A program made the translations under genes and the position numbers. The notes beneath the pieces were generated by a model, which made no database searches, was not told where the DNA came from, and saw only the letters and a list, made by a program, of their open reading frames with translations. From positions 16,273-80,272 of the IMG/VR virus record IMGVR_UViG_3300037400_003300: a DNA stretch of 64,000 bases. The stretch is one strand, 5' to 3'. Each line of letters opens with the position of its first letter. The first letter of the stretch is position 1. Source of the DNA: a virus. Its lineage: Duplodnaviria; Heunggongvirae; Uroviricota; Caudoviricetes. Positions 6,504-54,900 of this stretch are shown piece by piece.

Positions 6504-7757
6504 TTATATTTTCTGTGCCTGAATGGTACTTATCTGATTAACAATATCATCAAGATTACCGGCCTTGTCATATGCTATAGCAAGCTTTTTAAGCTGTCCC
6601 GGATTTAACCTCATTAGATCATTATCATCAATCTTTGTATCTGCGAAAACTTCCACTCCTTTATATTTTCCTGCCATAAGTTCAGCAAAAATATAAGCGT
6701 TTTCTAAAATCAGTCTAATATCATTATATTCAGCCATAAGACTATTTATCTCTTTTGGCTTTAGATCATCTAACTGATTGCTTTGAATTGTTTTTCTAAA
6801 AGCAGAAAACTTAGAAGAATACTTATCAAATAAAGTAAGATTCTTTTTATCATCTGTTTTAACCGGCGAATCTTTCTCTTCATTTGGTCTTGCAGAAAAT
6901 AAAGCAGCAATAAGCGAAGATACTTTTGCTTGTCTAATAGAATCGTCATAACTTTTATCAAAATCATCGGTACTATGAAGCTGTTTAAGAAGCTTATCAA
7001 CATCTTTTCCAAGAAGCTTATGCCCATTTTTTACAGCGTCCATAATAGCCTTAACAATAATCTTCTGACTATCCTTATCGTAGCTACAGATAGAAGCCGC
7101 CTGCTCGATAAGAATTACACCATCACGTTCTGCTTCTATAAGTTCATCACAAGCCTTTAATAGCGATTTATATTTCCATACAGTGTTTTTCTTGGCATTA
7201 AATTCATCGCAAACAATATTGTCAATCTGAGCCTGACTTTTTATTCCTTGCTTGCGTAAGATGTTTTCAAGATATTTAATCTGATGTGCGATATAAATAT
7301 CTCCACCTTCAGCAGATGCCTTGATAGAGCCTCTTGAGTGTATGTTTGCCCTTAAAAACTGTAATCGTCTGTCAATCTCGTCTTTAGGATATGGATAAAC
7401 GTCACATTTTACCTTTTCCTTTTTTAGATATTTCATCGCGGCTACTCTTCGGTGTCCGGAATAGATCATGAATTTACCTGAATCTTCACCGGAAAGTTCC
7501 CAGACTTCAACAGCAGTCTTAAAGCCAACTTCTTCAATTCCCTTTGCAAGATTAGAAATAGAATCGTCTGTTACCGGGCCAAAAACATAATCATTACCAA
7601 AGCCATCACTATCTATATAATCAACTAAAAGATCAATAGATATTTCCCTATCTGCGTTTTGAGGTTCAATTTTTGATTCTTTGATTATTTCTTTTTCCTG
7701 TTCTTGTTTTAAAGAAACCTTTTTCACATTGGAAAAAAAATCATTTGCCACTACCAA
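6504..7757 (-). CDS. parB: ParB-like partition protein
   Basis: YSGHRRVAAMKYL ParB-box motif; overlaps parA stop. Confidence 0.8.
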   Translation of the reverse strand: MVVANDFFSNVKKVSLKQEQEKEIIKESKIEPQNADREISIDLLVDYIDSDGFGNDYVFGPVTDDSISNLAKGIEEVGFKTAVEVWELSGEDSGKFMIYSGHRRVAAMKYLKKEKVKCDVYPYPKDEIDRRLQFLRANIHSRGSIKASAEGGDIYIAHQIKYLENILRKQGIKSQAQIDNIVCDEFNAKKNTVWKYKSLLKACDELIEAERDGVILIEQAASICSYDKDSQKIIVKAIMDAVKNGHKLLGKDVDKLLKQLHSTDDFDKSYDDSIRQAKVSSLIAALFSARPNEEKDSPVKTDDKKNLTLFDKYSSKFSAFRKTIQSNQLDDLKPKEINSLMAEYNDIRLILENAYIFAELMAGKYKGVEVFADTKIDDNDLMRLNPGQLKKLAIAYDKAGNLDDIVNQISTIQAQKI

Positions 7758-8559
7758 TTACCTCCAAAAGTTCAGCTGCAAATTCTCTATAATCGTCAGC
7801 ACCATTATTTGAGCCGTAGTTATATATTGAGCCTTTTGATAAAGCAACTTTCTTATCTGCAAGCTTAGTAACATCGGATATGTTCATAAAGCCTTGTACT
7901 TTCGGAATTGCCGCTGAGTCACGAATCGTTGTATTGAATGTATGAACAATAGATTCGTCAAGTCCTTTAAATTGTTCCTTGATATTACTCTGAACGGATT
8001 TTTTTCGTTCATATTTCGTGAGAAGAACACCATAAACTTCAAGTGAAGGATTAAGTTCTTCTTGAATTTCACCAATATTCTCTAAAAGAGATGCAAGACC
8101 ATCAATAGCAAAGGTCTCCGGTTCCATTGGAATAATTATGCCATTGGATGCAGTTAATACATTATCCATCATTATGCCTGCTGAGGGACCAGAATCCATG
8201 ACTATAACATCATAATCTTTTTCAATCGGCATGATTGCATTTTTTAATTTAGTTTCCCTTGCTTTAGCATTGATAAGTTCACCGATTGCTAATTTGAGTT
8301 TATTATTTGCCGGGGCTATGTCACCCATAGCATTGCCTTTAACTATGATCTCTGAAAGAGGAACTTTTTTTAAGATAGCATCATAGATAGTAAGCTCGTT
8401 TTCATTTACTTGAAAAACTTTACTAGAATTTCCCTGGGGATCGAAGTCGATAAGTAAGACCTTATAACCAATTTGAGTTAATGCGTCTGTAAGACAGATA
8501 GCAGTAGTTGTTTTACCTACACCACCCTTTTGATTTACAATTCCAATTTTAATAGCCAT
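7741..8559 (-). CDS. parA: ParA/Soj-type partition ATPase
   Basis: deviant Walker A KGGVGKTTT at N-terminus. Confidence 0.85.
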   Translation of the reverse strand: MAIKIGIVNQKGGVGKTTTAICLTDALTQIGYKVLLIDFDPQGNSSKVFQVNENELTIYDAILKKVPLSEIIVKGNAMGDIAPANNKLKLAIGELINAKARETKLKNAIMPIEKDYDVIVMDSGPSAGIMMDNVLTASNGIIIPMEPETFAIDGLASLLENIGEIQEELNPSLEVYGVLLTKYERKKSVQSNIKEQFKGLDESIVHTFNTTIRDSAAIPKVQGFMNISDVTKLADKKVALSKGSIYNYGSNNGADDYREFAAELLEVIGSGK

Positions 8560-9077: not shown

Positions 9078-9244
9078 GTGCAAATATGGGAGTAATTGCG
9101 TGCAAATATGGGAATAATTGCGTCTAAATATGGGAGTAATTGTGTGCAAATAGCGGATTTTTCCAAAAAATAAATTGTGTATTAAAAGCGGAAAAGTTGT
9201 GTGCAAATATGGGAGTAATTGTGTGCAAATTTGGGAGCGGTGAA
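9078..9244. repeat. iterons: 4 tandem + 2 further 22-bp repeats GTGCAAATATGGGAGTAATTG(C/T)
   Basis: direct repeats at 9078, 9100, 9122, 9144 (partial), 9201, 9223; AT-rich surroundings; upstream of rep. Confidence 0.7.
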
Positions 9245-9546: not shown

Positions 9547-10767
9547 ATGAAAAAAAGTAACAACGATTGGCTAATTAAAGTTTATTTTACGAAAAGCAAT
9601 AATCTAATCACATCAAAAAGCCGAATGACAATTATCGGAAGGAAGGTATTAGATGCTGCGATTATGAATGTCCGGGAGACATATGATGAGTATGGGAATC
9701 CTATAATAAAAGCAGACATCGATGGACAGGAACTAAAGAAATTCATTGGAAGAGATTATAACTCAATATATGACACAGTAAAAAGCCTGATTAAACCTAA
9801 ATCACAGAAAGGGGCCGATGCATTAAAACCATCTCTTCTTGATTGGAAAGTCATTATAGCCGATGACGATAGACAACAGATCATTGGAATAAATGTTATC
9901 ACATTAGCGAAGTATACTAATGGAAAATTATCTATAGTTTTTAATAACGCTTTAAAGCAAAATCTTATTGGGCTAAAGAAGAATTATACTATGCTCAATA
10001 GGGATATAATCTCCAAATTTTCAAGTAATTATTCATATCAGCTCTACCAGATTTTCAAAAAGACAATTGATAAAGAATTAAGCAGATTAAAAGAAGATGG
10101 GATTGATAATGGCAATCATCCATTTGAGCTTATTTTTGACATAATTGATCTTAAAGTTCAGCTTGGAGTAATAGAAGCAAGCGAAAACGACATTTTATAT
10201 AAAGCAATAATGAATAATAATGTCTGCACCTATGAAGAGGTTATCAGGATTGATGACGATGAACTTGTAGAAAGACTTACAGAAAGTAGGAACTTCAGAA
10301 GATATGCTGTAGAAAAAGCAAAAAAAGAGATAAATGAAATCTCTGACATAAAGATGGATTATAAGCCGATATACGGAGGCAAAGGCGGAAAGACGGTAGG
10401 CTTTAAATTTTTCATTCAGTATAAAGAAATTGAAAAGGAAAAAGAAGAAAAAGAGCCTGACGAAGTAGATATATTTGAATTTATTGATAAGGTCCGGGAG
10501 ATAATAAAAGAGCCTGTTTTAAGCAGTAAAGAGATAAAGAGTATATCGGATGCAGCTGGGTATGACCTTGATAAGATTAAAAAAGCTTATAACGTATATC
10601 AGCAACAAGACAATGTAAGAAATGTTCCTGGATTTATCATAGATGCGATTAAAAATGATTATAAGGAACTTCCAGGAAAGAAAAAATCACCTGCTCATTT
10701 TGGCATGGAAAGGGAATATACACCGGAATTTTTTAGCGAACTTGAAAAAAGACTTGTAGAAAATTAA
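9547..10767 (+). CDS. rep: iteron-type plasmid replication initiator (Rep_3/RepA-like)
   Basis: N-terminus NNLITSKSRMTIIGRKVLDAAIMNV resembles the Rep_3 N-terminal pattern; sits next to the iterons. Confidence 0.6.
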   Translation: MKKSNNDWLIKVYFTKSNNLITSKSRMTIIGRKVLDAAIMNVRETYDEYGNPIIKADIDGQELKKFIGRDYNSIYDTVKSLIKPKSQKGADALKPSLLDWKVIIADDDRQQIIGINVITLAKYTNGKLSIVFNNALKQNLIGLKKNYTMLNRDIISKFSSNYSYQLYQIFKKTIDKELSRLKEDGIDNGNHPFELIFDIIDLKVQLGVIEASENDILYKAIMNNNVCTYEEVIRIDDDELVERLTESRNFRRYAVEKAKKEINEISDIKMDYKPIYGGKGGKTVGFKFFIQYKEIEKEKEEKEPDEVDIFEFIDKVREIIKEPVLSSKEIKSISDAAGYDLDKIKKAYNVYQQQDNVRNVPGFIIDAIKNDYKELPGKKKSPAHFGMEREYTPEFFSELEKRLVEN

Positions 10768-14950: not shown

Positions 14951-15254
14951 TGAAACAATTCTTGTTGAAATAGTAAGAGTAAATACAAAAGAAGTAGCTG
15001 CATTATATCTTCAGGATTATATTCAGAGCAATGGCTTTTTAAGTAATGAAGCTGGGGATATAATCAAAAAGCTATTAAAAGAAAAAGATGATAAACCTAA
15101 GCCTGATGTAAAACCAAATATAGAACAGATGATAAAAGAAATAGAGGAACTTCCTGATACCATTTATAGCGGCAGCATAATGGATGTAACAGGTGTTTCC
15201 TGTAAAAATATGAAGGATAAAGTCATTGAAATCATTAGAAAATACTCCAAATAA
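14937..15254 (+). CDS. hypothetical protein (paralog of 12761)
   Basis: QSNGFLSNEAG motif. Confidence 0.4.
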   Translation: MLNLNETILVEIVRVNTKEVAALYLQDYIQSNGFLSNEAGDIIKKLLKEKDDKPKPDVKPNIEQMIKEIEELPDTIYSGSIMDVTGVSCKNMKDKVIEIIRKYSK

Positions 15255-15576
15255 TCAAATAGGACAACGTATCAAGTATTTGTTAATCCATAATAGAATG
15301 AACCAAAGGGACCTTGCAGATAAAGCAGGCATTACGTATACATCTTTATCTAGGTATATTAACGGCGAGCGCACTCCGAACAGTAAAATCTTGGCAAAGA
15401 TTGCTACTGCGCTTAACATAGATGCAAACTTTTTACTTGGAATAAATAAAGACATAGAAGATCCGGAGAAAGATTTTTATAAGGCCCAAAGATTAACGGC
15501 AAGAAGTGCTGATAAATGGACTAAGAAACAGAAAGCAGAATTAATCCTTGCGATAATGGGAGTTAATAATGATTAA
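15226..15576 (+). CDS. XRE-family helix-turn-helix transcriptional regulator
   Basis: IGQRIKYLLIHNRMNQRDLADKAGITYTSLSRYINGERTP HTH_3 pattern; stop overlaps tnpB-like start. Confidence 0.6.
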   Translation: MKSLENTPNNQIGQRIKYLLIHNRMNQRDLADKAGITYTSLSRYINGERTPNSKILAKIATALNIDANFLLGINKDIEDPEKDFYKAQRLTARSADKWTKKQKAELILAIMGVNND

Positions 15577-16735
15577 ATCAATCAAAGTAATGCTACTTCC
15601 TAATAATTTTCAAAAAACAAGGTTTCATCAACACGCGGGAGCAGCAAGATTTCTTTATAACTGGGCACTTGCAAAAGAAGAAGAGAATTACGAAGCAGGC
15701 GGAAAGTTTATTTCTTATTATGAACTTGCAAAAGAGCTTACAGAGATTAAGAAAACAGATGAATATGCATGGCTAAATGATATATCTGCTTGTACTTGTC
15801 AGGCTGCGATTAAAGATGCTTGTGACGCTTATAATAATTTCTTTAAAAAACGAGCCAGGCATCCAAAATTCAAATCAAAGAATAAATCGGCCCCTAGTTT
15901 TGCACAAACAGATCAGGCTATAGAGTTTACTTCTACACATGTTAGACTTAGCAGTTTATCTAAAAGTCTTAAAAGGAATAGAAAAAAACTAAACTGGGTA
16001 AGGCTTGCCGAACATGGCAAGATACCAATAAATGTAAAGCATAGCAATCCAAGGATAACTTTTGATGGCATAAATTGGTGGATTAGTGTAGGAATAGACT
16101 ATCCGGAAAATGATGTTAAATTATCTGAGGAGGGATTAGGTGTTGATCTGGGAATAAGGAACCTTGCTGTATGTTCTGATGATAACATTTATCCTAACAT
16201 CAATAAGACCAAGGCGATCAAAGATTTAGAGAAAAGAAAACGAAGATTGCAACGAAGTATATCCAGGAAATATGAGATGAACAAAAAGGGGGATGAATTT
16301 GTTAAGACAAAAAATATAATAAAAGATGAGAAAAAGTTATTAAAGATGCATCAAAGGTTGAGTAATATCAGGAAAAATTATCTGCATCATACATCCAAAG
16401 AGATTGTCGGAAAGAATCCTAAATTTATTTGCATTGATGATCTTAATATTCAAAGCATGATGAAAAACAAGTATCTTGCAAAAGCTTTTCAAGAACAGTC
16501 TCTTTACGAATTTAGCAGGCAGCTTGAATATAAGAGCAATTTTAAAGGAATTAAATTTATACGAGCAGATAGGGACTATCCATCATCAAAGAAATGTAGC
16601 ATTTGTGGAAGGATAAAGAAGAATTTAAAGCCTTATCAAAAGTTATATAAGTGTGAATGTGGAAATGTAATTGATATTCATAAGCAAGCTGCATTAAATC
16701 TTAAATCTTATGGTGAAGATATTATTGCAGAATAA
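15569..16735 (+). CDS. tnpB: TnpB-like (IS200/IS605 OrfB family) RuvC-fold protein; Cas12/TldR-like candidate
   Basis: OrfB N-terminus; RuvC-I GVDLGIRNLAV (D193); RuvC-II ICIDDLNIQSM (D290 in place of the canonical E); zinc finger CSICG...CECG; RuvC-III region DIHKQAALNL (H371 in place of D). No tnpA nearby. Confidence 0.8.
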   Translation: MIKSIKVMLLPNNFQKTRFHQHAGAARFLYNWALAKEEENYEAGGKFISYYELAKELTEIKKTDEYAWLNDISACTCQAAIKDACDAYNNFFKKRARHPKFKSKNKSAPSFAQTDQAIEFTSTHVRLSSLSKSLKRNRKKLNWVRLAEHGKIPINVKHSNPRITFDGINWWISVGIDYPENDVKLSEEGLGVDLGIRNLAVCSDDNIYPNINKTKAIKDLEKRKRRLQRSISRKYEMNKKGDEFVKTKNIIKDEKKLLKMHQRLSNIRKNYLHHTSKEIVGKNPKFICIDDLNIQSMMKNKYLAKAFQEQSLYEFSRQLEYKSNFKGIKFIRADRDYPSSKKCSICGRIKKNLKPYQKLYKCECGNVIDIHKQAALNLKSYGEDIIAE

Positions 16736-16910
16736 TAATATTGTACCGGAAGCTGGTCCGGGAATTTACGCCTACGGAGTGTACTTGAACTTGTTAGTAG
16801 ACAGCACCACCGTCGAAAGCATACACGATGAAGTAGGAATGGAACATATAAGTATATCTTATTATAAGTTTTCAGCCGGGAGTAATCCCTTGCATCTTAA
16901 TAATTTGACC
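16736..16910 (+). other. leader / possible scaffold-RNA region between the tnpB-like gene and the array
   Basis: non-coding; CCGGAAGCTGGTCCGG and CAGCCGGGAGTAATCCC hairpin potential. Confidence 0.3.
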
Positions 16911-17338
16911 TTTTAGAAGTATGTAATTTTGCATAGATGTAAAGCCTGGCACTAAAGAAAGACATAGAGGTATGTCTTTTAGAAGTATGTAATTTTGCAT
17001 AGGTGTAAAGCACAGCTTTCAGACATATCTTTATAGCCAAAACTTTTAGAAGTATGTAATTTTGCATAGATGTAAAGCTAGACATGCTGAGATAGTTTGC
17101 TGTGATTACTTTTAGAAGTATGCAATTTTGCATAGGTGCAAAGCTACTGTGATGAAGACTACGTTGCTTTTAACTAGAAGTATGTAATTTTGCATAGGTG
17201 TAAAGCACCATCTTTCCATCAGCATATCCATCGCCTCTTTTAGAAGTATTCAATTTTGCATAGGTGTAAAGCTGATTTCATAAAAAAGACATATGAGGAT
17301 TTCTTTTAGAAGTATGCTTTTCCATGTAGATGCAAAGC
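16911..17338 (+). CRISPR. CRISPR-like array: 7 repeats of 35 nt (TTTTAGAAGTATGTAATTTTGCATAGGTGTAAAGC) with 6 spacers of 23-32 nt
   Basis: repeats at ~16911, 16977, 17044, 17110, 17168, 17238, 17304; internal hairpin UAUGUAA-UU-UUGCAUA with a compensatory C/G change in repeats 4/6; period ~66 nt. Confidence 0.55.
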
Positions 17339-17835
17339 GGGCCACATCGCATCACGATTTAAAGATATGCAATATTACATAGATGCAAAGCTGGCAGTAT
17401 CTTATAAGAAGCTATTTAAACTTCTAAAGGTATCTAAATTTGCATGGATGCAAAGCGTTTACGATATTGGAAGGGAATTAGTTTGCATTGATGCAAAGCA
17501 GCAAATAATTCTGATGTAAAGCCTACGTTCTCATGACAAGAGAAATCAATTATTACTTCTAAATAATTGCAAAGCAAATATGGTTATATTTTTAATGCAA
17601 AGCAAATGTATTTATGTTTTTGATGCAAAGCCAGATCGTTTTTTGGGTTGATAATATTTTTAGAAGCTTGACAAACCATACACCAAACTCATTAAAGCAA
17701 GCTTCTTTAAATTTATCAAGATGCAAAGCGACGGATAGATACATTGATATGAAAGGTCAATAGCAAAGTGAAGAATGTGTTTGAAGAAGAAGCAAAGCGG
17801 GCGCGAGATGATTTTCTAAAGGTGTAAAGCTAAGG
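17339..17835 (+). repeat. degenerate distal repeat relics of the array
   Basis: more than 10 units ending ...GATGCAAAGC / GTAAAGC with decaying similarity. Confidence 0.5.
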
Positions 17836-26393: not shown

Positions 26394-26810
26394 TTAAAAA
26401 TTCAATAGATAATATTCTTTTATTAGCTCGATTTTTTCCGGCGTCTTTTTCCCGGCTAAACTATTAATCAATTCAATTTGTTTTTGATATGATGTATAAT
26501 TAAATATTTCATCCAAAATACGCGAGTAGTTATGATTAAAATCATATCGATCAATAGTTAATGCAATATTCAATCTATCAATTGTTTTTTGTTTGTGATT
26601 CCTGGCGATATTTTCAATTTTTATCATTGCATCGGCTGGAATATATCCGGGCCGGACAAATAATTTTATATTTCCGGCCGGTGATATATGCGCAACTTTT
26701 TTATAGTCGCCGTGATCATACACGGCGCTATTACATACCGTTGCGCCGTTTCCGAAATAACCAACGAATAGTTCAAATTTTTCCATGTTTAAAACCTCTT
26801 TAAATCGCAT
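26394..26810 (-). CDS. hypothetical protein
   Basis: ORF track. Confidence 0.4.
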   Translation of the reverse strand: MRFKEVLNMEKFELFVGYFGNGATVCNSAVYDHGDYKKVAHISPAGNIKLFVRPGYIPADAMIKIENIARNHKQKTIDRLNIALTIDRYDFNHNYSRILDEIFNYTSYQKQIELINSLAGKKTPEKIELIKEYYLLNF

Positions 26811-27735
26811 TTAATCGCGTGTAAATGTCGTTATACTCATTCATAAAGTTATCAATAGACTTGTATTCTTTATTTTTATCGCTATTTTCCAGACGTTCAA
26901 AACTTCTAAAAATGCCTTCTATACCGTGAAAATAATCAAGTTTTTTATTTACACTAGCAATATCCGCCGCCGTTGTTGCTTCCACTAACATATTAATGAC
27001 ATTGTTCTTTTTATCCAGAATTGCAGCTTTTAAAGCTTTTATTTTGTCGGTATTATCAATACATATATATGCATTTTTTGCTTTTTCTGCGCGTAAAATT
27101 GCAGCCCTGCGGCGTAAAGTCTCGCGACGATACATAAGTAAATAGCCGGATTTATCTATTAAAGAATTAATATCCATAGTATTGTATCTATATGTATCAA
27201 GTTGATAGGTTAATCCGTCATTGTCGGTTGTCTGCATGTTTAATGAATAAATGCATTTTTCTGTGCTATTATAAGGTGTGTTAACTTGTGCTTTTAAAAG
27301 CTTTAAACGCTGCATAGAATCTATATTTTTACGCGCTGGAATGCTTAAAAAGTCCCTATTTTGACATATTACAATAGTGTGTGTGGCGTTTTTACGGACC
27401 GATTCAAAATCCGACTTTGTATAAAATGTATCAAGTGATACAAATTTATTGTTATTGTATCCAGTTGAATTAATGTCTTTTTCCATATTTCCACTAGGAT
27501 CAAGGACCGCAACGCGATAATTTGTACAATACGCCGTGTTGGACCGGGTAAGCATTACAAAAATATCTTTTTTAGGTGTATAGCCGGCAGCGGCTTTTAT
27601 AATCTGATTTATTGTAAATTTTCCCGCTATGTCAAAAATATAATAGGGCTTTATAAAATCCAGGCCTATGCAGGCATGCAAACTTTGCAAAATTCTTTTA
27701 TTTTCTTTTAATAAGCTATGTAATAATGTATTCAT
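26800..27735 (-). CDS. hypothetical protein
   Basis: ORF track. Confidence 0.45.
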   Translation of the reverse strand: MNTLLHSLLKENKRILQSLHACIGLDFIKPYYIFDIAGKFTINQIIKAAAGYTPKKDIFVMLTRSNTAYCTNYRVAVLDPSGNMEKDINSTGYNNNKFVSLDTFYTKSDFESVRKNATHTIVICQNRDFLSIPARKNIDSMQRLKLLKAQVNTPYNSTEKCIYSLNMQTTDNDGLTYQLDTYRYNTMDINSLIDKSGYLLMYRRETLRRRAAILRAEKAKNAYICIDNTDKIKALKAAILDKKNNVINMLVEATTAADIASVNKKLDYFHGIEGIFRSFERLENSDKNKEYKSIDNFMNEYNDIYTRLNAI

Positions 27736-28762: not shown

Positions 28763-29479
28763 ATGCCAGGGACCGGAAAAATGAATATTGAAAATATAGT
28801 AAAGAATACAATTAAAAATACAGATACCGCCGGCGGCGGGAAAATTGACGATCTTTTGCAGCATGAAATATTAACCGATGATATAAAAAATGAAATTTTT
28901 GAATGCTGGAAAAATGATCTTGATATCTATATTGACAACTACGCACAGACAAGTCCAGATATTAACGCGAATAAAGGCATGTTTAAATGTAGCTTGGAAA
29001 CTTGGCAAGCATGCGCTAGTGATATAGGCCGGAATTACTTCTTTAAAAATAGATACTTAATAGATAAAAAGAAAATAGCCGCGCAGGGCGGCGGGACAAT
29101 ATACCGTGATGATCTTTTATTAATCGGCCTGGAATTATATGAATATTACTGTAATTTGTTTAGAAAACAATTTTTTATTTATGATTGCACGCGGTTTTTA
29201 GGAATATCAAAAGAAGTGTTATATAGATTAAATACATTGCACAGTGACTTGCTAAAAAGGGCCCACACAATTCAAGAATCCAGCATGCGCACAGCATTGG
29301 CAAGCGGCCGCAGCAATGTTACTGCTATAGCAATACTATTAAATCACGATTACAACTATACAAGGACAACCGAAATAATACATAGTAGCGATAGAATTAA
29401 ATCAGCCGATACATTGCCAGTGCTTAAAATTGACGATATACCAAACAATGAAATTAAAAGATCGAGTGAAAACATGTAA
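28763..29479 (+). CDS. hypothetical protein
   Basis: ORF track; divergent from the minus-strand cluster. Confidence 0.45.
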   Translation: MPGTGKMNIENIVKNTIKNTDTAGGGKIDDLLQHEILTDDIKNEIFECWKNDLDIYIDNYAQTSPDINANKGMFKCSLETWQACASDIGRNYFFKNRYLIDKKKIAAQGGGTIYRDDLLLIGLELYEYYCNLFRKQFFIYDCTRFLGISKEVLYRLNTLHSDLLKRAHTIQESSMRTALASGRSNVTAIAILLNHDYNYTRTTEIIHSSDRIKSADTLPVLKIDDIPNNEIKRSSENM

Positions 29480-30120: not shown

Positions 30121-30372
30121 ATGCCAACGAAAGATTCCATGATAAAGACCGCAAGGATCACGCAGGAAACCTGGAGAAAGATGGAAGCATACATGGAGAG
30201 GGAAGATGTGACCTTCTCAGGAGCAATAAGAAAGCTGGTCGAGGAAGCGGACATACCGAAGCAGCGTAGGGAGTTTGTAGACACGAAAGAGCTGGTAGAC
30301 CTCTGTGAAAGAAGGAATATCGAACCACAGACACTAATAGATGGGCTTGTAAGGGAGTTAAAGAGGGGATGA
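30121..30372 (+). CDS. ribbon-helix-helix DNA-binding protein
   Basis: KTARITQETWRKMEAYM...SGAIRKLVE. Confidence 0.5.
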   Translation: MPTKDSMIKTARITQETWRKMEAYMEREDVTFSGAIRKLVEEADIPKQRREFVDTKELVDLCERRNIEPQTLIDGLVRELKRG

Positions 30373-30539
30373 GTAGTAGTAAGACACAGACAAGAACCAT
30401 AAGGATAAAGAATGAGACAGCGGATTTCTTCAGAGACAAGCCACTTAACAAAGTAGTTGAGAACGTGCATGACCTGGCACTAAAGAAAGACATAGAGGTA
30501 TGTGAGAATGGGAAAATTTCTATACTCAGTGGACGGTGA
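30369..30539 (+). CDS. ribbon-helix-helix-like small protein (contains the protospacer)
   Basis: RTIRIKNETADFFRDKPLNKVVENVHDLALKK; hand-translated. Confidence 0.4.
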   Translation: MSSSKTQTRTIRIKNETADFFRDKPLNKVVENVHDLALKKDIEVCENGKISILSGR

Positions 30540-36048: not shown

Positions 36049-37599
36049 ATGGGCGGTAGGAAAAAGATAATGACCGATGTTCCGGTCGTTACTGCTGAAA
36101 ATATAATATCGATTATTCAAAAAGCAATCGGAGACCATAAAGAAAACGCTGCTAAGATACAGGAATTATTTGATTTTGAAGAGGGCTTTCAGCCACTTCA
36201 AAGAGTGAAGGTGTATCGAAGCGATATTGATATAGATGTGACTGATAACGTAGCTAATGAGATTGTTGAGTTTAAAGTTGCTCTAAACTATGGAAATCCT
36301 ATTTCTTTTAAGAAACGTGGATCTGTAGATGGGATGATTGAAGCAATCGAGATGTGGAATGACCAGTATTTCCTTACGGATTCAGATTCAAGCAATCAGG
36401 AACTTGCAAGAGATTTTGAAATCTGCGGTATTGGAAATGTTTTTATTGATATAAATACTGATTATGAGGAAGGCGATTCTTACTACACAAGAACAATCTT
36501 AAATCCAAGGACTTCATTTGTTATTTACTCATCATATTACTATGACCGCAGACCGATGGTAGGTGTAACGTTCCGTAAAGATTCAGATGGAGTAACGCAT
36601 TACACGGCATTTTCTAAGGATTTCAGATTTGAGATAAAGTATTGGATAATCCAGAATCCGGGGAAAGAAGATGAACCGGTCTGGGCGCATGAGGATAGGA
36701 GTGGAGAAGTAAATCCACTTCATGCGATACCTATTATCGAATATTTTAGAAGTTATGACAGAATGGGATGCTTTGAAAGGCAGATTCCCGCAATGAACAA
36801 CCTTAACCTGCTTGTTTCTGACTTCTCGAATGACGTAGACCAGAACACACAGGTTGTATGGTGGGCAAATGATTGTGAGTTTGAGACCATACAGGTTGTA
36901 AATGAGGATGGGACTGTTACTGAGCAGGTAAAACATCCAAAATCTAACGAATGGCTTCAGACATTTACAACAAGAGATGGCAAGATACCGAAAGTTCAGC
37001 CACTTATCGTTAATTACGATTACGCGGGAATGCTGAATAATTATATGTCTCAGAGAGCATTGATACTCCAGAAGTGTAATGTGCCTCAGAGAAATGATAA
37101 TTCCGGAGGAAGCACAGGTGTTGCAATGAGTGATGCTACCGGATGGAGTGCAGCTGATATTGCGGCAAATAAAGAGGAAATGATTATCTCTAAGAGTATC
37201 AGACGGGAGATAAAAGTTATCTGTGCTGCGATAAGAGAAAGCGCATGTCCTTTGGACAGTCCACTTAGAAAGATTAAGCCATCCGATATTGAGCCAAGCA
37301 TAAAGAGACAGAAGAATTATGAACTTTCAGTAAAGACAACGGCAATATCTAATCTGATTAATATTGGATTCAGTCTTGAAGATACGCTTGATGCTGTACC
37401 ACTGTTTCCAGATCCGGCACAGGTTATTGAGCGAAGTAAAGAAGGTGTGGAAGCATATCAGAAAACAAAACTTAAGCAATCCGAAAAGAGTGAAGAAAAA
37501 GAAGCAACGCCCGGTTCAGACGATCCCATATATCAGATTGAGAACAGCCCTAATATAGATGGAATGAACACAGATAATGGCGAAGAGGATGAAAATTGA
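36049..37599 (+). CDS. portal protein
   Basis: 516 aa; position between terminase and head-morphogenesis genes. Confidence 0.65.
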   Translation: MGGRKKIMTDVPVVTAENIISIIQKAIGDHKENAAKIQELFDFEEGFQPLQRVKVYRSDIDIDVTDNVANEIVEFKVALNYGNPISFKKRGSVDGMIEAIEMWNDQYFLTDSDSSNQELARDFEICGIGNVFIDINTDYEEGDSYYTRTILNPRTSFVIYSSYYYDRRPMVGVTFRKDSDGVTHYTAFSKDFRFEIKYWIIQNPGKEDEPVWAHEDRSGEVNPLHAIPIIEYFRSYDRMGCFERQIPAMNNLNLLVSDFSNDVDQNTQVVWWANDCEFETIQVVNEDGTVTEQVKHPKSNEWLQTFTTRDGKIPKVQPLIVNYDYAGMLNNYMSQRALILQKCNVPQRNDNSGGSTGVAMSDATGWSAADIAANKEEMIISKSIRREIKVICAAIRESACPLDSPLRKIKPSDIEPSIKRQKNYELSVKTTAISNLINIGFSLEDTLDAVPLFPDPAQVIERSKEGVEAYQKTKLKQSEKSEEKEATPGSDDPIYQIENSPNIDGMNTDNGEEDEN

Positions 37600-51930: not shown

Positions 51931-54900
51931 ATGAGGATGAATACTATGAATGTAGATTCATTAAATATACAAATCAAATCTAGCGCAACTGATGCAAAAA
52001 AGTCTTTAGATAGTCTTATTACTTCACTTAAAAACTTAAACAAACAACTTGGACTTAAAGAGGGCACAAAACTTGCGACCACATTAAAGACTATCTCCAA
52101 CTCTGCTGTTTCTGCGTCTGCCGAAATTAATAAGATTAGTGGAACCGGACTTGAAAAGGTTTCTAAAGAAGCAGCCGTAGCGCAGAAGTCAATTCAGAAA
52201 CTCGCAAAAGAAGGCGAAAATGTAAAGAAAACAATTGAAGGGTTTAAATTTCCTGATTTTGATAGATACTTCGGTGTGATGAATGACAAGTTTGAAGTAT
52301 CTGAATCTATGGAAAAAGGAACCAATAATGCGATTAAGAACATTAAAAATCTTGGATTCGTTATAAAAAACTTGGATGATTCTGCTCCGGAACGTGTAGT
52401 TGAGGATGTACAAGAAAAACTTCTTCCTGCAACAACAAGAGTTAATGACCAGATAAAAGAATTAGCGAAGAATTTTAATGAAGTAAGCGAGATAAAAGTT
52501 TTTGATGTTGCAACAAAGAAAACAGAAGCAACATCATATCAGATTGGGAAATTACTCGCTTCCGTAAGAGAATATAAGAAAATTATATCCGAAATGGAGA
52601 GCGGAAAACGTGCATTTGATCCTAAAATGTACAGTGATGCAGTAATAGGTCTTAATCAAGCAAAGAAATCTATTGATGCATACAAAAAATCATTATCTAC
52701 TACTGAAGAAGTGGCAGATGCTTTATCAAGAAAAATGGAATTGATTAGTTCCAGGTCGGCAGGTGCATCTATTCCAAAGGATTTTAAAGCAATTTATGAT
52801 AATGCATTAAAGTCAGCGCAAGCAGCAGATGAACTGGCAAAGGGAACTCAGAAAGCCAAAACAGAGATTGAACATTTACTTGAGAAGTATAGGGAATATA
52901 AAAAGATTATCTCTGAAATGGAAAGTGGGAAAAGACCTGTTGATGAGAAAGAATATAAAGAAGCAGTCATAGGTTATTCCAAAGCCAAAGAAGCAATCGA
53001 TGAGTATAAAAAATCTCTTGATAAAATACCAGACAGGCCAAAACTGTCATTTTTCAAGGATGTAATACCGCAATTGCTTGTGCTAGAGCGTGGGTTTGGC
53101 AATTTATCGAATAAATTTAATGCATTGGCTGACAAGAGTACGAAGTTGTTCAAAATAATGATTACCCCTTTGAAACTTGCAGCTAGAGAGTATACTGAGA
53201 AATTTCAAGGAATCAAACATGCTGTAACAGGATTTCGCGAACATTTTATTTCAAACATGACTAAGGTTTCTCAGTTTTGGGCAAAAACAATGCGAACATT
53301 TACTTTCATGCTTGTTCGTAAAGCAATAACTGCTATTATTTCCGAAGTAAATAATGCAATAAAATCGCTAGCTCAGTTCTCTAATACGATGGGAACTCAG
53401 TTTAATCAAAGCATTTCAAACCTTGTGGCTGATTTTCAATATCTTGGCCGTTCTATTGTAAGTGTATTCGCTCCTCTTCTTGAGATGATTACGCCTATTA
53501 TCGATGCCATTGTTGAAAAAATCGCAACATTGCTTTCATATATAGGAATGCTATTTGCTGCTTTAGGAGGAAAGTCTTCTTTTACTAAGGCAAAAAAAGA
53601 GGTGACGAATTATGGTGCAGCTGTAGGGAAAGCCGCTAAGTCTGTTAGTACTCTTACAATGGGTATTGATGAACTTAATATCTTGTCTGAAAACAAAGGC
53701 GGTGGAGGTGGCGGAGCTGGTTCACCTCTGGCGGGTTGGGAAGAAGTGGAAATTCCCAACTGGATAAATGGCTTTGCCAATAAAGTGAAGAAAACATTTG
53801 GTGATCTATTTGAACCAATGTTAAAGGCTTGGAGAGCAGCAAAAAATTATATACTTTCTGGTTGGGAGTATATGACGGATGAGATGAAGAAGCTTTTAGC
53901 ATCGATATGGCGAGATTTTATAAGAGTATGGAAAAGCGATGTAGTAACCAATATCTTCTATCAGCTTTTAATGATGGTTGGAGATATTGAAAGAGTAATA
54001 GGTAATCTTGCTAAGAGATTTAGAGAAGCATGGGATAATGCGGATGCAGGTTACAATATCTTGATGAATATTGCCAAAGCCATATATAAAATTGTTGAAC
54101 ATGCTCGCAATGTCACTCTATATATGGTGAGATGGAGCGATGAATTAACGTTTGATCCCCTTATACAATCTTTAGTAAGACTAACTGATAGTTTTATTAG
54201 ATTGGCAGACTTTATTGGCGGTGTATTTGAAGATGTCATGAAAAACGTTGTTCTCGAATATATCGGGTGGTTAATTGAAGAAGGGCTTCCACATCTAAAT
54301 AATACAATAGCAGAAGTTATTGATGCCTTCAATTTTGATAAGATAAGGCAAGACCTCGAACCATTTGAAAAAGCTTTTATAACGGTGCTTGAAAATATTC
54401 ATACCGGAACAACAAACGCTTTAGGAAATCTTGGCAAGCAATTAGCAGACTTTACTGATTCAAAGGAATTTACGGATTTTCTGGTACGTTTATCTGAAAT
54501 TATGGGAATGATTTCAGCAGAAGATGTTGAAAAACTTCTTACAGGAATTGGAAAAGGCATTTTAGATATTGCTGAGTCCGTTGTGAAATTTGTTAATTCA
54601 GATACTTTCATGAATTTCATGGAGAGTATTGATGAATGGTTCGAGAATCTTTCGGCGGATGATATTGCAGATGGTCTTACCAAAATAGCTCATGCAATTC
54701 TTCTTTTTAAGTTTGGAGCTTTTGCGGCTGAAGGTGTCGCAGCTTTCTTAAAAGTAATATTGACATTACAGGCGTTTAGCAATATTTCAAAAATCGCAAC
54801 TGGATTAACTGCAACAGGCGCAGGAGCAACAGCTGCCGCTGGAGGATTTAGTGCATTTACAGCAGCAGCGCTTCCAGTTGTAGGAATACTTGCCGCGATT

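What the first reader, a model, noticed from the sequence alone, without database searches (positions are those of the whole stretch)
15569..17835. TnpB-like RuvC protein directly followed by a CRISPR-like repeat-spacer array
A 388-aa IS605-OrfB/TnpB-family protein has no tnpA partner and no recognisable IS ends, and is translationally coupled to an XRE regulator. A 175-bp structured leader separates it from an array on the same strand. The array has seven well-conserved 35-nt repeats (TTTTAGAAGTATGTAATTTTGCATAGGTGTAAAGC) alternating with unique 23-32-nt segments at a ~66-nt period. Each repeat contains a 7-bp stem (UAUGUAA / UUGCAUA), and the two variant repeats carry a compensatory U-to-C change that preserves pairing, which argues for a functional RNA hairpin. 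More than ten further repeats degrade progressively toward 17835, like the trailer end of a CRISPR array. There are no cas1/cas2/cas4 genes in the window. Under 400 aa, this would be a minimal TnpB-to-Cas12 intermediate (type V-U-like), or a TnpB using a multi-guide array instead of a single omega-RNA guide, carried on a phage-plasmid.
Basis: partly seen in the sequence, partly recalled or inferred. Interest (0 to 1): 0.9.

Follow-up and report, generated by a model that had tools for sequence, protein, structure and literature searches.

The report
Altered TnpB beside a borrowed CRISPR array
A phage-plasmid carries an immobilised transposon nuclease gene (TnpB) with an altered catalytic site, its guide-RNA scaffold, and directly after it a real, still-changing CRISPR array whose repeats look borrowed from a Cas9-type (II-A) system; this shows one way a transposon protein may become CRISPR-linked.

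Summary
ORF 15569-16735 is an IS607-family TnpB homologue. The "leader" is its RAGATH-18 guide-RNA (reRNA) scaffold. From 16910 there is a genuine CRISPR array with 36-nt repeats and 30-31-nt spacers.

Fourteen related loci carry the same module, all in the same position of Rep3/ParA phage-plasmids where context is held. Spacers differ at the tnpB-proximal end, and closely related loci share trailers.

- **Altered protein.** In every array-linked copy the RuvC-III aspartate, required for cleavage in the closest characterised homologue ISFba1, is His or Asn. The TAM-reading residues are also changed. The gene is still under strong purifying selection (dN/dS 0.05-0.13).
- **Repeat origin.** The repeat and the leader-repeat junction (ATTTGAC/CTTT) are of type II-A ancestry. 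They are not derived from the reRNA.
- **Self-targeting.** The newest spacer matches the element itself perfectly (30474-30503).

No cas genes are present.

Most likely this is a probably non-cleaving TnpB derivative that uses the array. Its scaffold would act as a tracrRNA through an 8-14-nt anti-repeat at 16890-16898, and spacers would be added in trans by a host II-A machinery. This is inferred, not shown.

It is a new variant of the known TranC / type V-U / TldR kinds.

The parts
15226..15576 (+). XRE-family HTH ORF (116 aa) whose stop overlaps the tnpB start by 8 nt. An HTH ORF sits in this position in many but not all relatives.
   Evidence: Pfam HTH_3 1.3e-13. An HTH ORF lies upstream in L016, L017, L022, L023, L025, L026 and L027, but not in L018 or L024.
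15569..16735 (+). Immobilised IS607-family TnpB derivative (388 aa). RuvC-I D193 is kept. RuvC-II is 'IDDLN' where E is expected. RuvC-III is 'IDIHKQAA', with His where the catalytic Asp is expected. TAM-reading residues are changed (K83->Q, Y117->A, 'DN'->'TD' in ISFba1 numbering).
   Evidence: NCBIfam guided_TnpB 5e-81. PDB 8IAZ (ISFba1 TnpB) 1.7e-67, with the His aligned to the D371A position. Clade-versus-canonical alignments. dN/dS 0.05-0.13.
16743..16889 (+). reRNA/omega-RNA-like scaffold: a 5' hairpin, the RAGATH-18 core (16771-16839), the last stem, and a clade-specific small hairpin GGGAGTAATCCC (16878-16889). The canonical right-end terminus '...CAGTAACGG' is replaced.
   Evidence: Rfam RF03064 64.7 bits. 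The consensus fold has 32 pairs, 15 of them with changes on both sides, across clade and canonical relatives. Canonical ends seen in L004, L005 and L066.
16890..16898 (+). Candidate anti-repeat TTGCATCTT, at the position where a canonical reRNA guide would begin. It is complementary to the 3' part of the repeats and is the exact complement of the trailer motif AGATGCAA.
   Evidence: Runs of 8-9 contiguous pairs in several loci, and 8-14 bp duplexes (-7.9 to -13.5 kcal/mol) in the loci where this segment gives the best duplex. Per-locus shuffle p ranges from 0.007 to 0.36. Suggestive, not proven.
16903..16909 (+). Leader end ATTTGAC, abutting the first repeat (C/TTT). It resembles the type II-A group 1 leader-anchoring junction ATTTGAG/GTTT.
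   Evidence: The sequence is ATTTGAC in 14 of 15 clade scaffolds and AATTGAC in L025. The motif definition is from PMC5382924.
16910..17338 (+). CRISPR array: seven 36-nt repeats and six 30-31-nt spacers. The newest spacer is 16946-16975.
   Evidence: Relatives have the same repeat family with different spacers. The repeat is 23/36 identical in register to the S. pyogenes and S. thermophilus CRISPR3 / S. agalactiae II-A repeats and 27/36 to the L043 array repeat (p<5e-5).
17339..17835 (+). Trailer: 12 AAAGC-ended units at irregular spacing that keep only the repeat's last 8-10 nt (TG[C/T]AAAGC).
   Evidence: 7 of the 9 ATGCAAAGC copies in the window lie here, against 1.24 expected. Position-wise conservation over 50 units in 5 loci. 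Trailer blocks are conserved across subclades.
17650..17717 (+). Conserved long hairpin inside the trailer. Its 5' arm resembles the repeat's 5' end and its 3' arm is complementary to it. The loop holds a conserved ACACCAAAC.
   Evidence: z-scores of -4.5, -4.9 and -5.2 in three subclades and -2.4 in L016, with different stem sequences. Alignment.
30474..30503 (+). Protospacer: a perfect 30/30 match to the newest spacer, inside a 56-aa ORF (30369-30539) about 1 kb downstream of the small-terminase-like gene. Flanks are 5' GCATGAC and 3' GAGAATGG.
   Evidence: The same site occurs in the L001 contig (30/30) and, with 3 mismatches, in the L003 contig.

Best explanation
**What it is.** This is a domesticated IS607-family TnpB module on a phage-plasmid. 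It is no longer a transposon. It has joined a CRISPR array of type II-A ancestry.

**Shown.**
- The protein is kept by strong purifying selection. It has lost the canonical RuvC-III aspartate and changed its TAM-reading residues.
- Its RAGATH-18 scaffold RNA keeps its fold through compensatory changes.
- The transposon's right-end terminus is gone, and the scaffold now runs into about 30 nt of CRISPR leader followed by the array.
- The array gains and loses spacers at the tnpB-proximal end among near-identical elements.

**Inferred mechanism.**
1. The scaffold RNA works like a tracrRNA. Its 3' tail UUGCAUCUU, at the former guide position, pairs with the 3' part of each repeat (AGRUGYAA). This leaves 'AGC' plus the spacer where the reRNA guide normally starts.
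2. The TnpB derivative is thereby programmed by many spacers.
3. Because the catalytic Asp is His or Asn, it most likely binds DNA without cutting, as Cas12m, Cas12c and TldR do. It would then silence competing mobile elements or the element's own genes.
4. New spacers are inserted in trans by a host type II-A Cas1-Cas2(-Csn2-Cas9) machinery that recognises the ATTTGAC/CTTT junction.
For: - **Homology and scaffold.**
- **Catalytic and TAM residues.** RuvC-III D->H/N is found in all array-linked copies, while canonical relatives at about 60% identity keep E and D. In ISFba1, D194/E290/D371 are required for cleavage and K83/N121/N122 read the TAM (PMC11061315).
- **Selection.** dN/dS is 0.05-0.13.
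- **Scaffold fold.** 15 of 32 pairs have changes on both sides.
- **Distribution.** The same module was found in 14 related loci. All with enough flanking DNA sit at the same position in Rep3/ParA phage-plasmid contigs. All arrays of this repeat family in three large collections are next to this TnpB clade.
- **Spacer turnover.** L065 has a TnpB 99.2% identical to the window's but different spacers. One spacer is shared by L001, L003 and L065 behind different newer spacers.
- **Type II-A features.**
- **Derived hairpin.** The repeat has a hairpin that the II-A-like L043 repeat lacks by eye.
- **Trailer constraint.** Only the repeat's 3' end is conserved in trailers, the side that abuts the spacer in type V crRNAs.
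- **Anti-repeat.** A candidate sits at the guide position.
- **Linker tolerance.** The last 21 nt of the ISFba1 scaffold are dispensable, so an altered linker is tolerated.
- **Self-targeting.** A perfect self-targeting spacer is tolerated, as expected for a non-cleaving effector.
Against: - **No expression data.** Neither transcription nor processing has been observed.
- **Weak anti-repeat.** It is only 8-14 bp. Per-locus significance is modest (p 0.007-0.36), the loci are not independent, and covariation is not clean. A scan of the whole window did not rank the scaffold among the best partners of the full repeat.
- **PAM/TAM conflict.** II-A-type acquisition selects a 3' PAM, whereas a TnpB needs a 5' TAM. 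The single protospacer has 5' GCATGAC, which is not AGGAG, and 3' GAGAAT, which is purine-rich and Cas9-PAM-like.
- **Shared descent.** Co-occurrence of TnpB and array could reflect common descent within one element family.
- **Rearranged active site.** A single RuvC-III substitution can sometimes be compensated. The TldR study warns of this.
- **Few targets.** Only 1 of 53 spacers has a known target.
Confidence: 0.4

Rival explanations
1. Two independent neighbours. The array is an orphan type II-A-like array that the phage-plasmid keeps in order to use the host's Cas9, tracrRNA and adaptation proteins against competitors. The TnpB derivative is a separate TldR-like regulator with its own fixed guide.
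For: - 36-nt repeat, 30-nt spacers, junction ATTTGAC/CTTT versus ATTTGAG/GTTT, and in-register identity to II-A repeats.
- The 3' flank GAGAAT of the only protospacer is purine-rich, like some Cas9 PAMs (the PAM comparison is from memory).
- The trailer hairpin has a 10-13-nt arm complementary to the repeat's 5' end, which is the side a tracrRNA pairs with.
- There is no strong anti-repeat in the scaffold.
Against: - A perfect self-targeting spacer with a plausible 3' PAM would destroy the element if an active Cas9 used it.
- The repeats have gained a hairpin. They vary between subclades at positions 11-31, where a tracrRNA would pair.
- Trailers conserve the 3' end of the repeat, not the 5' end.
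- No full-length anti-repeat or cas9 is in the window.
- The sequence at the fixed-guide position has no other match in the window. It contains a conserved hairpin, which is unlike a guide.
- The repeat pattern was not found next to cas genes in any collection.
Confidence: 0.25
2. It is still a nuclease: a true TranC or type V-U effector with a rearranged catalytic site. For example, the retained Asp two residues upstream, or the His, could complete the site. It would then cleave targets specified by the array.
For: - Strong purifying selection.
- RuvC-I Asp is kept. RuvC-II stays acidic (E or D) in every copy.
- Published surveys report TnpB groups with non-canonical sites that may stay active (PMC10691335; TldR preprint).
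- PADLOC's best models are Cas12u4 and Cas12f.
Against: - The RuvC-III Asp is essential in the closest characterised homologue.
- The position is His in most copies but Asn in one (P0011/L024). The RuvC-II pair drifts between ED, DD, EN and DN, which suggests relaxed constraint on catalysis.
- A perfect self-match is tolerated.
Confidence: 0.13
3. The scaffold RNA still carries a fixed guide, which is the CRISPR leader remnant it landed in. The dead TnpB would bind leader DNA: its own leader, a competitor's or the host's II-A leader. It would then control array transcription or spacer integration, acting as an RNA-guided regulator or anti-CRISPR.
For: - By the ISFba1 spacing (50 nt after RAGATH-18), the guide would be exactly the 20 nt before the first repeat, 16890-16909.
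- The segment is conserved in all relatives.
- A guide transcribed from its own target always matches it.
Against: - The segment has indels and substitutions after its first 8 nt among relatives. That is poor for a shared external target.
- No second copy occurs in the window.
- The TAM is unknown.
Confidence: 0.12
4. A decaying relic: a dead insertion sequence next to a decaying tandem repeat, with no function.
For: Degenerate trailer. One relative (L026) has only one good repeat. One cluster (P0017) holds a truncated protein.
Against: dN/dS is 0.05-0.13 over dS up to 2.5. The RNA fold is maintained by compensatory changes. Spacers turn over between 99%-identical elements.
Confidence: 0.03

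Closest known systems
ISFba1-type IS607 TnpB guided by RAGATH-18-derived reRNA (Cell Res 2024, PMC11061315; PDB 8IAZ)
   Same: - Closest solved and characterised homologue (phmmer 1.7e-67, full length).
- Same size (387 versus 388 aa).
- Same RNA scaffold family immediately downstream.
- Upstream ORF overlapping the tnpB start, as in IS607 elements.
   Different: - Catalytic D371 is His here and E290 is Asp. TAM readers K83, Y117 and N121/N122 are changed.
- There is no transposase.
- The right-end terminus is replaced.
- It sits in one syntenic position in a phage-plasmid family rather than in many insertion sites.
- It is followed by a CRISPR array instead of a single flank-derived guide.
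TranC (transposon-CRISPR intermediates; Jin et al., Cell 2025, cited in PMC13565253 and bioRxiv 10.64898/2026.03.27.714800) and Cas12-U groups (PMC10691335)
   Same: - A TnpB-sized effector with a short CRISPR array downstream on the same strand.
- No adaptation genes.
- Repeats of 32-38 nt and 3-20 repeats.
- IS605 or IS607 ancestry.
- Some are encoded by viruses.
   Different: - TranCs are active nucleases, and their crRNA repeat is the split-off 3' part of the reRNA.
- Here the RuvC-III Asp is lost, the reRNA scaffold is still whole, and the repeat is not significantly like the reRNA 3' end (p 0.13-0.23). It is II-A-like.
- LaTranC matches only the C-terminal third of this protein (2.9e-13).
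TldR (TnpB-like nuclease-dead repressors; bioRxiv 10.1101/2023.11.30.569447)
   Same: - A domesticated, immobile TnpB with a deteriorated RuvC site.
- It keeps its guide-RNA scaffold.
- It is encoded by a temperate mobile element.
   Different: - TldRs use one fixed guide against a host promoter, and many are C-terminally truncated.
- Here the protein is full length and no fixed-guide target was found.
- A multi-spacer array with turnover follows.
Cas12m / Cas12c (type V effectors that bind and silence without cutting DNA)
   Same: The proposed mode of action is the same: array-programmed DNA binding that silences mobile elements.
   Different: Those are larger, bona fide Cas12 lineages with their own repeat types. 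No close sequence relationship was seen here. Function is untested here.
Type II-A CRISPR arrays (group 1 leader end ATTTGAG/GTTT; PMC5382924)
   Same: - 36-nt repeat and 30-nt spacers.
- Junction ATTTGAC/CTTT.
- Repeat starts (C)TTTTAGA and ends AAAGC.
- 23/36 in-register identity to streptococcal II-A repeats.
   Different: - The first repeat base and the last leader base are C, not G.
- The repeat has an internal hairpin.
- No cas9, cas1, cas2 or csn2 gene and no long anti-repeat is in the element.

Membership tests
IS607-family TnpB with RAGATH-18 reRNA | Full-length homology to characterised TnpB (HTH, OrfB_IS605 and zinc-ribbon/TNB domains) | tested here: met
IS607-family TnpB with RAGATH-18 reRNA | RAGATH-18-containing scaffold RNA immediately downstream on the same strand | tested here: met
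   RF03064 64.7 bits at 16771-16839. Fold conserved with compensatory changes.
IS607-family TnpB with RAGATH-18 reRNA | Intact RuvC D-E-D triad (D194, E290, D371 in ISFba1) | tested here: not met
   The window has D, D, H. The whole clade has H or N at the third position.
IS607-family TnpB with RAGATH-18 reRNA | Part of a mobile element: transposase or its remnant, defined ends, several insertion sites | tested here: not met
   No transposase in the window. The right-end terminus TAACGG is replaced. All copies with enough flanking DNA are in one syntenic position.
IS607-family TnpB with RAGATH-18 reRNA | TAM-reading residues for 5'-AGGAG (K83, N121, N122, Y117) | tested here: not met
   K83->Q, Y117->A/F/S, 'DN'->'TD'. 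Canonical relatives keep K, Y and DN.
TranC / type V-U (TnpB-like effector plus CRISPR array) | TnpB-sized effector gene with a CRISPR array downstream on the same strand, conserved across relatives | tested here: met
   14 related loci.
TranC / type V-U (TnpB-like effector plus CRISPR array) | Array with variable spacers (true CRISPR behaviour) | tested here: met
   53 distinct spacers. Turnover is at the tnpB-proximal end and older spacers are shared.
TranC / type V-U (TnpB-like effector plus CRISPR array) | tracrRNA with an anti-repeat against the last ~16 nt of the repeat, lying between the gene and the array | tested here: inconclusive
   TTGCATCTT (16890-16898) pairs 8-14 bp with the repeat's 3' half. 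This meets the lenient working criterion quoted. Shuffle p is 0.007-0.36 per locus and covariation is not clean.
TranC / type V-U (TnpB-like effector plus CRISPR array) | Repeat derived from the 3' part of the reRNA (functional RNA splitting) | tested here: not met
   Local similarity of the repeat to the reRNA 3' end is not above shuffles (p 0.13-0.23). The repeat is II-A-like instead.
TranC / type V-U (TnpB-like effector plus CRISPR array) | crRNA-guided DNA cleavage | not testable with these tools
   Needs biochemistry. The altered RuvC-III argues against cleavage.
TldR (nuclease-dead TnpB repressor) | Conserved inactivating substitutions in the RuvC triad (the defining study required two or more) | tested here: inconclusive
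   The third position is always changed. The second is changed conservatively (E->D) in about half of the clade.
TldR (nuclease-dead TnpB repressor) | Single adjacent guide RNA whose fixed guide matches a promoter | tested here: not met
   The guide-position sequence has no other match in the window. Host genomes could not be searched.
Type II-A CRISPR array | 36-nt repeats with ~30-nt spacers | tested here: met
Type II-A CRISPR array | Leader-repeat junction ATTTGAG/GTTT, with the repeat starting with G and ending with C | tested here: inconclusive
   ATTTGAC/CTTT: 6 of 7 leader bases match. The first repeat base is C and the last is C.
Type II-A CRISPR array | Adjacent cas9-cas1-cas2-csn2 and a tracrRNA with a long anti-repeat | tested here: not met
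   No such domains among the scanned ORFs of at least 180 aa. No long anti-repeat in the window.

The most novel reading that the evidence does not exclude
A mobile-element-encoded, non-cleaving TnpB has captured a Cas9-type (II-A) array. The former reRNA guide segment, which is the CRISPR leader the transposon landed in, now serves as the anti-repeat. The element gets its spacers from the host's II-A adaptation machinery. If so, this is a natural type II / type V hybrid. It would be a living example of the 'transposon lands beside a pre-existing array' route to CRISPR association, which differs from the reRNA-splitting route shown for TranC.
Probability: 0.3. Interest if true: 0.85.

Novelty: new variant of a known kind. 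Interest (0 to 1): 0.66.

Why it matters
Two routes have been proposed for how TnpB became Cas12. One is duplication or splitting of its own guide RNA. The other is landing next to an existing array (PMC10691335). Only the first has experimental examples, the TranC systems.

This family looks like the second route caught in the act:
- a whole reRNA scaffold;
- a leader remnant at the guide position that can pair with the repeat;
- repeats of II-A type;
- active spacer turnover without any cas gene in the element.

If the protein uses the array, three things follow:
- An effector of one CRISPR class can adopt an array, and the adaptation service, of another class.
- Phage-plasmids carry compact programmable DNA binders of 388 aa.
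- There would be a tractable system for asking how TAM/PAM requirements are reconciled between the adaptation machinery and the effector.

If the protein does not use the array, the locus is still a conserved pairing of an orphan II-A-like array with a TldR-like protein on a phage-plasmid.

Tried and rejected
- **Close relatives in reference collections.** Megablast of the locus against phage and plasmid collections gave no match.
- **Spacer targets.**
  - 41 and then 11 further spacers were searched against phages, and the first 41 against plasmids. Nothing was found. L043's own 21 spacers, added as a control for the method, also found nothing, so these databases simply lack the relevant gut/rumen elements.
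  - Four further spacers were scanned in IMG/VR. Only the arrays themselves were hit.
  - All spacers were searched against all fetched loci. Only the self-match of the newest window spacer turned up.
- **Host arrays with this repeat.** A strict pattern found nothing in GTDB genomes. A relaxed pattern found only one more TnpB-linked array (L040) plus single chance hits. The metagenome scan found more TnpB-linked arrays and one unrelated long II-A-like array, L043. The repeat was also searched against plasmids and gave only chance hits.
- **tracrRNA elsewhere in the window.** None was found. The best non-array duplex is -26.6 kcal/mol at 27646-27705, against a background of -22 to -24.
- **First anti-repeat candidate (16765-16774, TTTACGCCTA).** It gives a 10-nt run with the window and L002 repeats, but 59 of 1000 shuffles do as well. 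It is invariant in canonical relatives, is part of the RAGATH-18 P1 stem, and repeat variants break it. Rejected.
- **Repeat derived from the reRNA 3' end.** Not significant.
- **Pseudoknot between the 5' hairpin loop and the scaffold's 3' end in the clade.** Not supported: the 3' segment varies (CAGC, CAAC, CAAT) while the loop is invariant.
- **Trailer pseudo-spacers as self-regulatory guides.** No matches in the window.
- **TAM of canonical relatives from insertion sites.** The 7 places retrieved for one cluster were all the same site, so this failed. The TAM was taken from the literature instead.
- **Relatives lacking tnpB.** The neighbouring integrase was used to look for them and found only one known contig.
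- **Promoter and terminator scan.** Nothing above chance in the leader.

Full report
**1. What is in the window**

ORF 15569-16735 (+) encodes a 388-aa protein. It matches NCBIfam 'guided_TnpB' (5e-81) and the three Pfam domains of TnpB. Its start overlaps the stop of an XRE-type HTH ORF, 15226-15576.

The 174 nt after the stop codon are not an anonymous leader. Positions 16771-16839 are a full-length match to Rfam RAGATH-18 (64.7 bits, gathering score 44.9). RAGATH-18 is the core of the guide RNA ('reRNA') of IS607-family TnpBs (PMC11061315).

From 16910 there are seven 36-nt repeats, CTTTTAGAAGTATGTAATTTTGCATAGGTGTAAAGC, with six 30-31-nt spacers. Twelve further units follow that keep only the last 8-10 nt of the repeat.

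The window as a whole is a phage-plasmid:
- ParA at 7741-8559 (-) and Rep3 at 9547-10767;
- a small-terminase-like ORF at 28763, portal at 36049, MuF at 37577 and a tape-measure-size ORF at 51931;
- two tyrosine recombinases and an FtsK-like ATPase.

No Cas1, Cas2, Cas9 or Csn2 domain occurs in any of the scanned ORFs of at least 180 aa.

**2. The closest characterised relative, and what has changed**

The best solved structure is 8IAZ, ISFba1 TnpB (1.7e-67 over the full length). ISFba1 is a 387-aa IS607 TnpB with these published properties:
- It cleaves DNA next to a 5'-AGGAG TAM, guided by a 187-nt RAGATH-18 scaffold plus a 20-nt guide.
- Cleavage depends on D194, E290 and D371.
- K83, N121 and N122 read the TAM.
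- The last 21 nt of the scaffold before the guide are disordered and dispensable.

The database search gave two groups of homologues. A tight clade is 77-99% identical to the window protein. After a gap come thousands of proteins at about 60% identity, the named ones from Lachnospira.

| Feature (ISFba1 numbering) | Canonical group (~60% identity) | Array-linked clade |
|---|---|---|
| RuvC-II | 'IEDLN' | 'IDDLN', 'IENLD' or 'IDNLN' |
| RuvC-III | 'IDRDxQA' | 'ID[IV][HN]KQAA' in every member |
| K83 | K | Q |
| Y117 | Y | A, F or S (Y in P0011) |
| N121/N122 equivalents | 'DN' | 'TD' |

In the 8IAZ alignment the window's His falls exactly on the engineered D371A position.

The gene is nevertheless under strong purifying selection. 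dN/dS is 0.05-0.13 for pairs with dS from 0.23 to 2.5.

The RNA scaffold is also maintained. In an alignment of nine clade members and three canonical elements, RNAalifold finds 32 pairs, 15 of them with changes on both sides. Some of these changes vary within the clade, for example CCGGA/TCCGG versus CCGAA/TTCGG.

Canonical scaffolds end '...TTTTCAGTAACGG' and then diverge into unrelated flanks. In the clade this terminus is replaced by 'CCGGGAGTAATCCC TTGCATCTT...AATTTGAC', followed by the first repeat.

So this is a former IS607-type element that is no longer mobile. Its protein and RNA are both conserved. Its catalytic and TAM-reading residues have changed together.

**3. The array behaves as a CRISPR array**

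The same module was recovered in L001-L003 (IMG/VR), L016-L027 (assemblies encoding clade proteins), L040 (a MAG contig), and L050, L052 and L065 (metagenomes). It consists of tnpB, the scaffold, the conserved about 30-nt leader remnant and the array. L025 ends inside its first repeat.

Where enough DNA is held, the position is the same in contigs of 57-85 kb with Rep3 and ParA. The gene order is (HTH)-tnpB-array-small ORFs-integrase-FtsK.

Repeat variants differ between subclades at positions 11-31. Positions 2-10 and 32-36 are invariant.

53 distinct spacers were collected. Their G+C, measured on the first 41 (0.36), equals that of the window.

Spacer content changes fastest at the tnpB-proximal end:
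- L065 encodes a TnpB 99.2% identical to the window's but shares none of the window's spacers.
- L001, L003 and L065 share the spacer TCCAATGGTGACAGCTGACCTTTTGCAA, each behind different newer spacers.
- The window, L001 and L003 share the degenerate trailer.
- Internal duplications of spacers occur in L001, L050 and L065.

This is the polarity expected of leader-end acquisition. It is not what a plain tandem duplication would give.

**4. Where the repeat comes from**

The repeat is not detectably related to the reRNA 3' end. Its local alignment score is no better than shuffles (p 0.13-0.23).

It is instead a type II-A-like repeat:
- It is 36 nt long with 30-nt spacers.
- It is identical in register at 23 of 36 positions to the S. 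pyogenes repeat and to the S. thermophilus CRISPR3 / S. agalactiae / S. mutans repeat. Those sequences were confirmed in the literature.
- It is identical at 27 of 36 positions to the repeat of a long stand-alone array found in a metagenome (L043). The shuffled mean is 10-11, and no shuffle out of 20,000 reached the observed value.
- The last seven leader bases are ATTTGAC in 14 of 15 clade scaffolds (AATTGAC in L025), abutting CTTT.

A survey of 167 type II-A loci found the junction ATTTGAG/GTTT to be the conserved, functionally required leader-anchoring site of the largest group. That survey also found 36-nt repeats (PMC5382924).

The simplest history is therefore that an IS607-type element inserted into the leader of a pre-existing II-A-type array, 26-33 nt upstream of the first repeat. 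This is the second route to type V systems suggested in PMC10691335.

Ongoing spacer turnover without cas genes in the element implies adaptation in trans. A host II-A-like Cas1-Cas2 that accepts this junction is the most plausible source. This is inference; no such host locus could be retrieved.

**5. Does the TnpB derivative use the array?**

Arguments for:
- **(a) Co-occurrence.** Every array of this repeat family in IMG/VR, the JGI metagenomes and the GTDB genomes lies beside this TnpB clade. This is weakened by common descent.
- **(b) Co-maintenance.** Protein and scaffold are both maintained, yet the scaffold is no longer followed by a flank-derived guide. The sequence there contains a small conserved hairpin (GGGA-loop-TCCC, with the loop varying) and has no second copy in the window.
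- **(c) Candidate anti-repeat.** Directly after that hairpin comes TTGCATCTT (16890-16898).
  - With the ISFba1 spacing, this is where the guide would start.
  - It is complementary to the 3' part of the repeats and is the exact complement of AGATGCAA, the core of the motif conserved throughout the trailers.
  - RNAduplex gives 8-14-bp duplexes with this segment in the loci where it is the best partner. Examples are -13.5 kcal/mol in the L018 and L052 types and -7.9 to -11.0 kcal/mol in the window. Per-locus shuffle p ranges from 0.007 to 0.36.
  - Because the strands pair antiparallel, the spacer's 5' end would sit at the scaffold's 3' end, where the guide normally begins.
  - This satisfies the working criterion used for compact type V tracrRNAs: at least 6 of 10 pairs within the last 16 nt of the repeat.
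- **(d) Derived hairpin.** The repeats have a 6-bp hairpin at positions 11-16 with 21-26. It is paired in 86.7% of cells, against 24-64% when slid. By eye, the II-A-like L043 repeat lacks it.
- **(e) Trailer constraint.** Trailers retain only the repeat's 3' end. That is the side that abuts the spacer in type V crRNAs. In type II crRNAs it is the side that is trimmed away.
- **(f) Self-targeting.** The newest window spacer matches the element itself 30/30 at 30474-30503. The site is in a small ORF about 1 kb downstream of the small-terminase-like gene. It is conserved in the L001 and L003 elements. An abundant genotype with a perfect self-match is easier to reconcile with a non-cleaving effector.

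Arguments against:
- The pairing is short and its statistics are modest. The loci are not independent, and the covariation is untidy.
- II-A-style acquisition selects a 3' PAM, while a TnpB needs a 5' TAM. The one protospacer has 5' GCATGAC and 3' GAGAAT.
- There are no expression data.
- A rearranged but active RuvC site cannot be excluded from sequence alone.

**6. Verdict**

This is a TnpB-CRISPR association of the TranC / type V-U kind. Three features set it apart:
- a non-canonical, probably dead RuvC site and altered TAM readers;
- an intact reRNA scaffold rather than a split one;
- an array of type II-A ancestry that is still acquiring spacers without cas genes in cis.

| Reading | Estimate |
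|---|---|
| Array-programmed, non-cleaving DNA binder with trans adaptation | 0.4 |
| Independent neighbours (host-Cas9 array plus a TldR-like protein) | 0.25 |
| Still-active nuclease | 0.13 |
| Leader-directed regulator | 0.12 |
| Relic | 0.03 |

**7. Limits**

- Only one protospacer is known.
- Host identity is inferred only from the Lachnospira names on some of the canonical TnpB relatives.
- ORFs under 180 aa were not all screened for Cas2.
- The comparison of the 3' flank with Cas9 PAMs rests on my own memory of published PAMs and on a single site.

Noticed in passing
window 17650-17717 (and homologous blocks in L002, L016, L022, L024, L027, L040): A long conserved hairpin inside the array trailer. 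Its 5' arm looks like the repeat's 5' end (TTTTAGAAGCTTG / CTTTTAGGAGCC). Its 3' arm is the complement, so it could also pair with the 5' end of any repeat. The loop holds a conserved ACACCAAAC. Stems differ between subclades but stay paired, with z-scores of -4.5 to -5.2 in three subclades and -2.4 in L016. It may be a terminator, a tracr-like element or a regulatory structure.
   Followed up: partly
window 17330-17835: A cluster of the 9-mer ATGCAAAGC (7 of the 9 copies in the window, 1.24 expected) at irregular spacing of 23-67 nt. Relatives have the same kind of cluster with spacings down to 5 nt. Simple decay of 66-nt units does not explain this.
   Followed up: partly
window 30474-30503: Self-targeting. 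The newest spacer matches the element's own DNA perfectly, in a 56-aa ORF at the start of the packaging/late region. The spacer has the sense of the coding strand, so the crRNA would pair with the template strand.
   Followed up: yes
window 9078-9152: 3.4 tandem copies of a 22-nt unit (GTGCAAATATGGGAGTAATTGC) about 400 nt upstream of the Rep3 initiator gene (9547-10767). These are probably the replication iterons.
   Followed up: no
L043 (OLOD01011558.1, 1937 nt): A stand-alone array of at least 24 repeats, GTTTTAGAAGTGTGTTATTTTGAATGATTACAAAGC, with 30-nt spacers. It is the nearest 'ordinary' relative of the window's repeat (27/36). The contig holds no leader or cas genes, so its system type and host are unknown.
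   Followed up: partly
L066-L068 (upstream of the canonical tnpB) and L004 2720-2760: Canonical relatives have a 49-aa MerR-like ORF overlapping the tnpB start, probably a remnant of the IS607 serine recombinase. In L004 a second copy of the right-end terminus (TTATAAGTTTTCAGTAACGG) lies about 70 nt upstream of tnpB.
   Followed up: no
window 27646-27705 (+): The best non-array partner of the repeat RNA in the whole window (-26.6 kcal/mol, background -22 to -24). It carries pieces of the reverse-complemented repeat (GCTTTA, CCTATGCA, TTGCAAAATT, CTTTTA). It lies inside the minus-strand ORF 26800-27735.
   Followed up: no
L001 7379-7408 and 7773-7802; L050; L065: Identical spacers occur twice within one array: L001 spacer 1 equals spacer 7, L050 has a two-unit block duplication, and L065 has two identical adjacent spacers. 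This indicates recombination or repeated acquisition inside these arrays.
   Followed up: no
L001 7708-7736: One spacer (GCCGTCCTCTGCTTCTGCCCGCCCGAAAG) has about 66% G+C, far above the 36% of the elements and of the other spacers. Its source is therefore compositionally foreign. No match was found in IMG/VR.
   Followed up: partly
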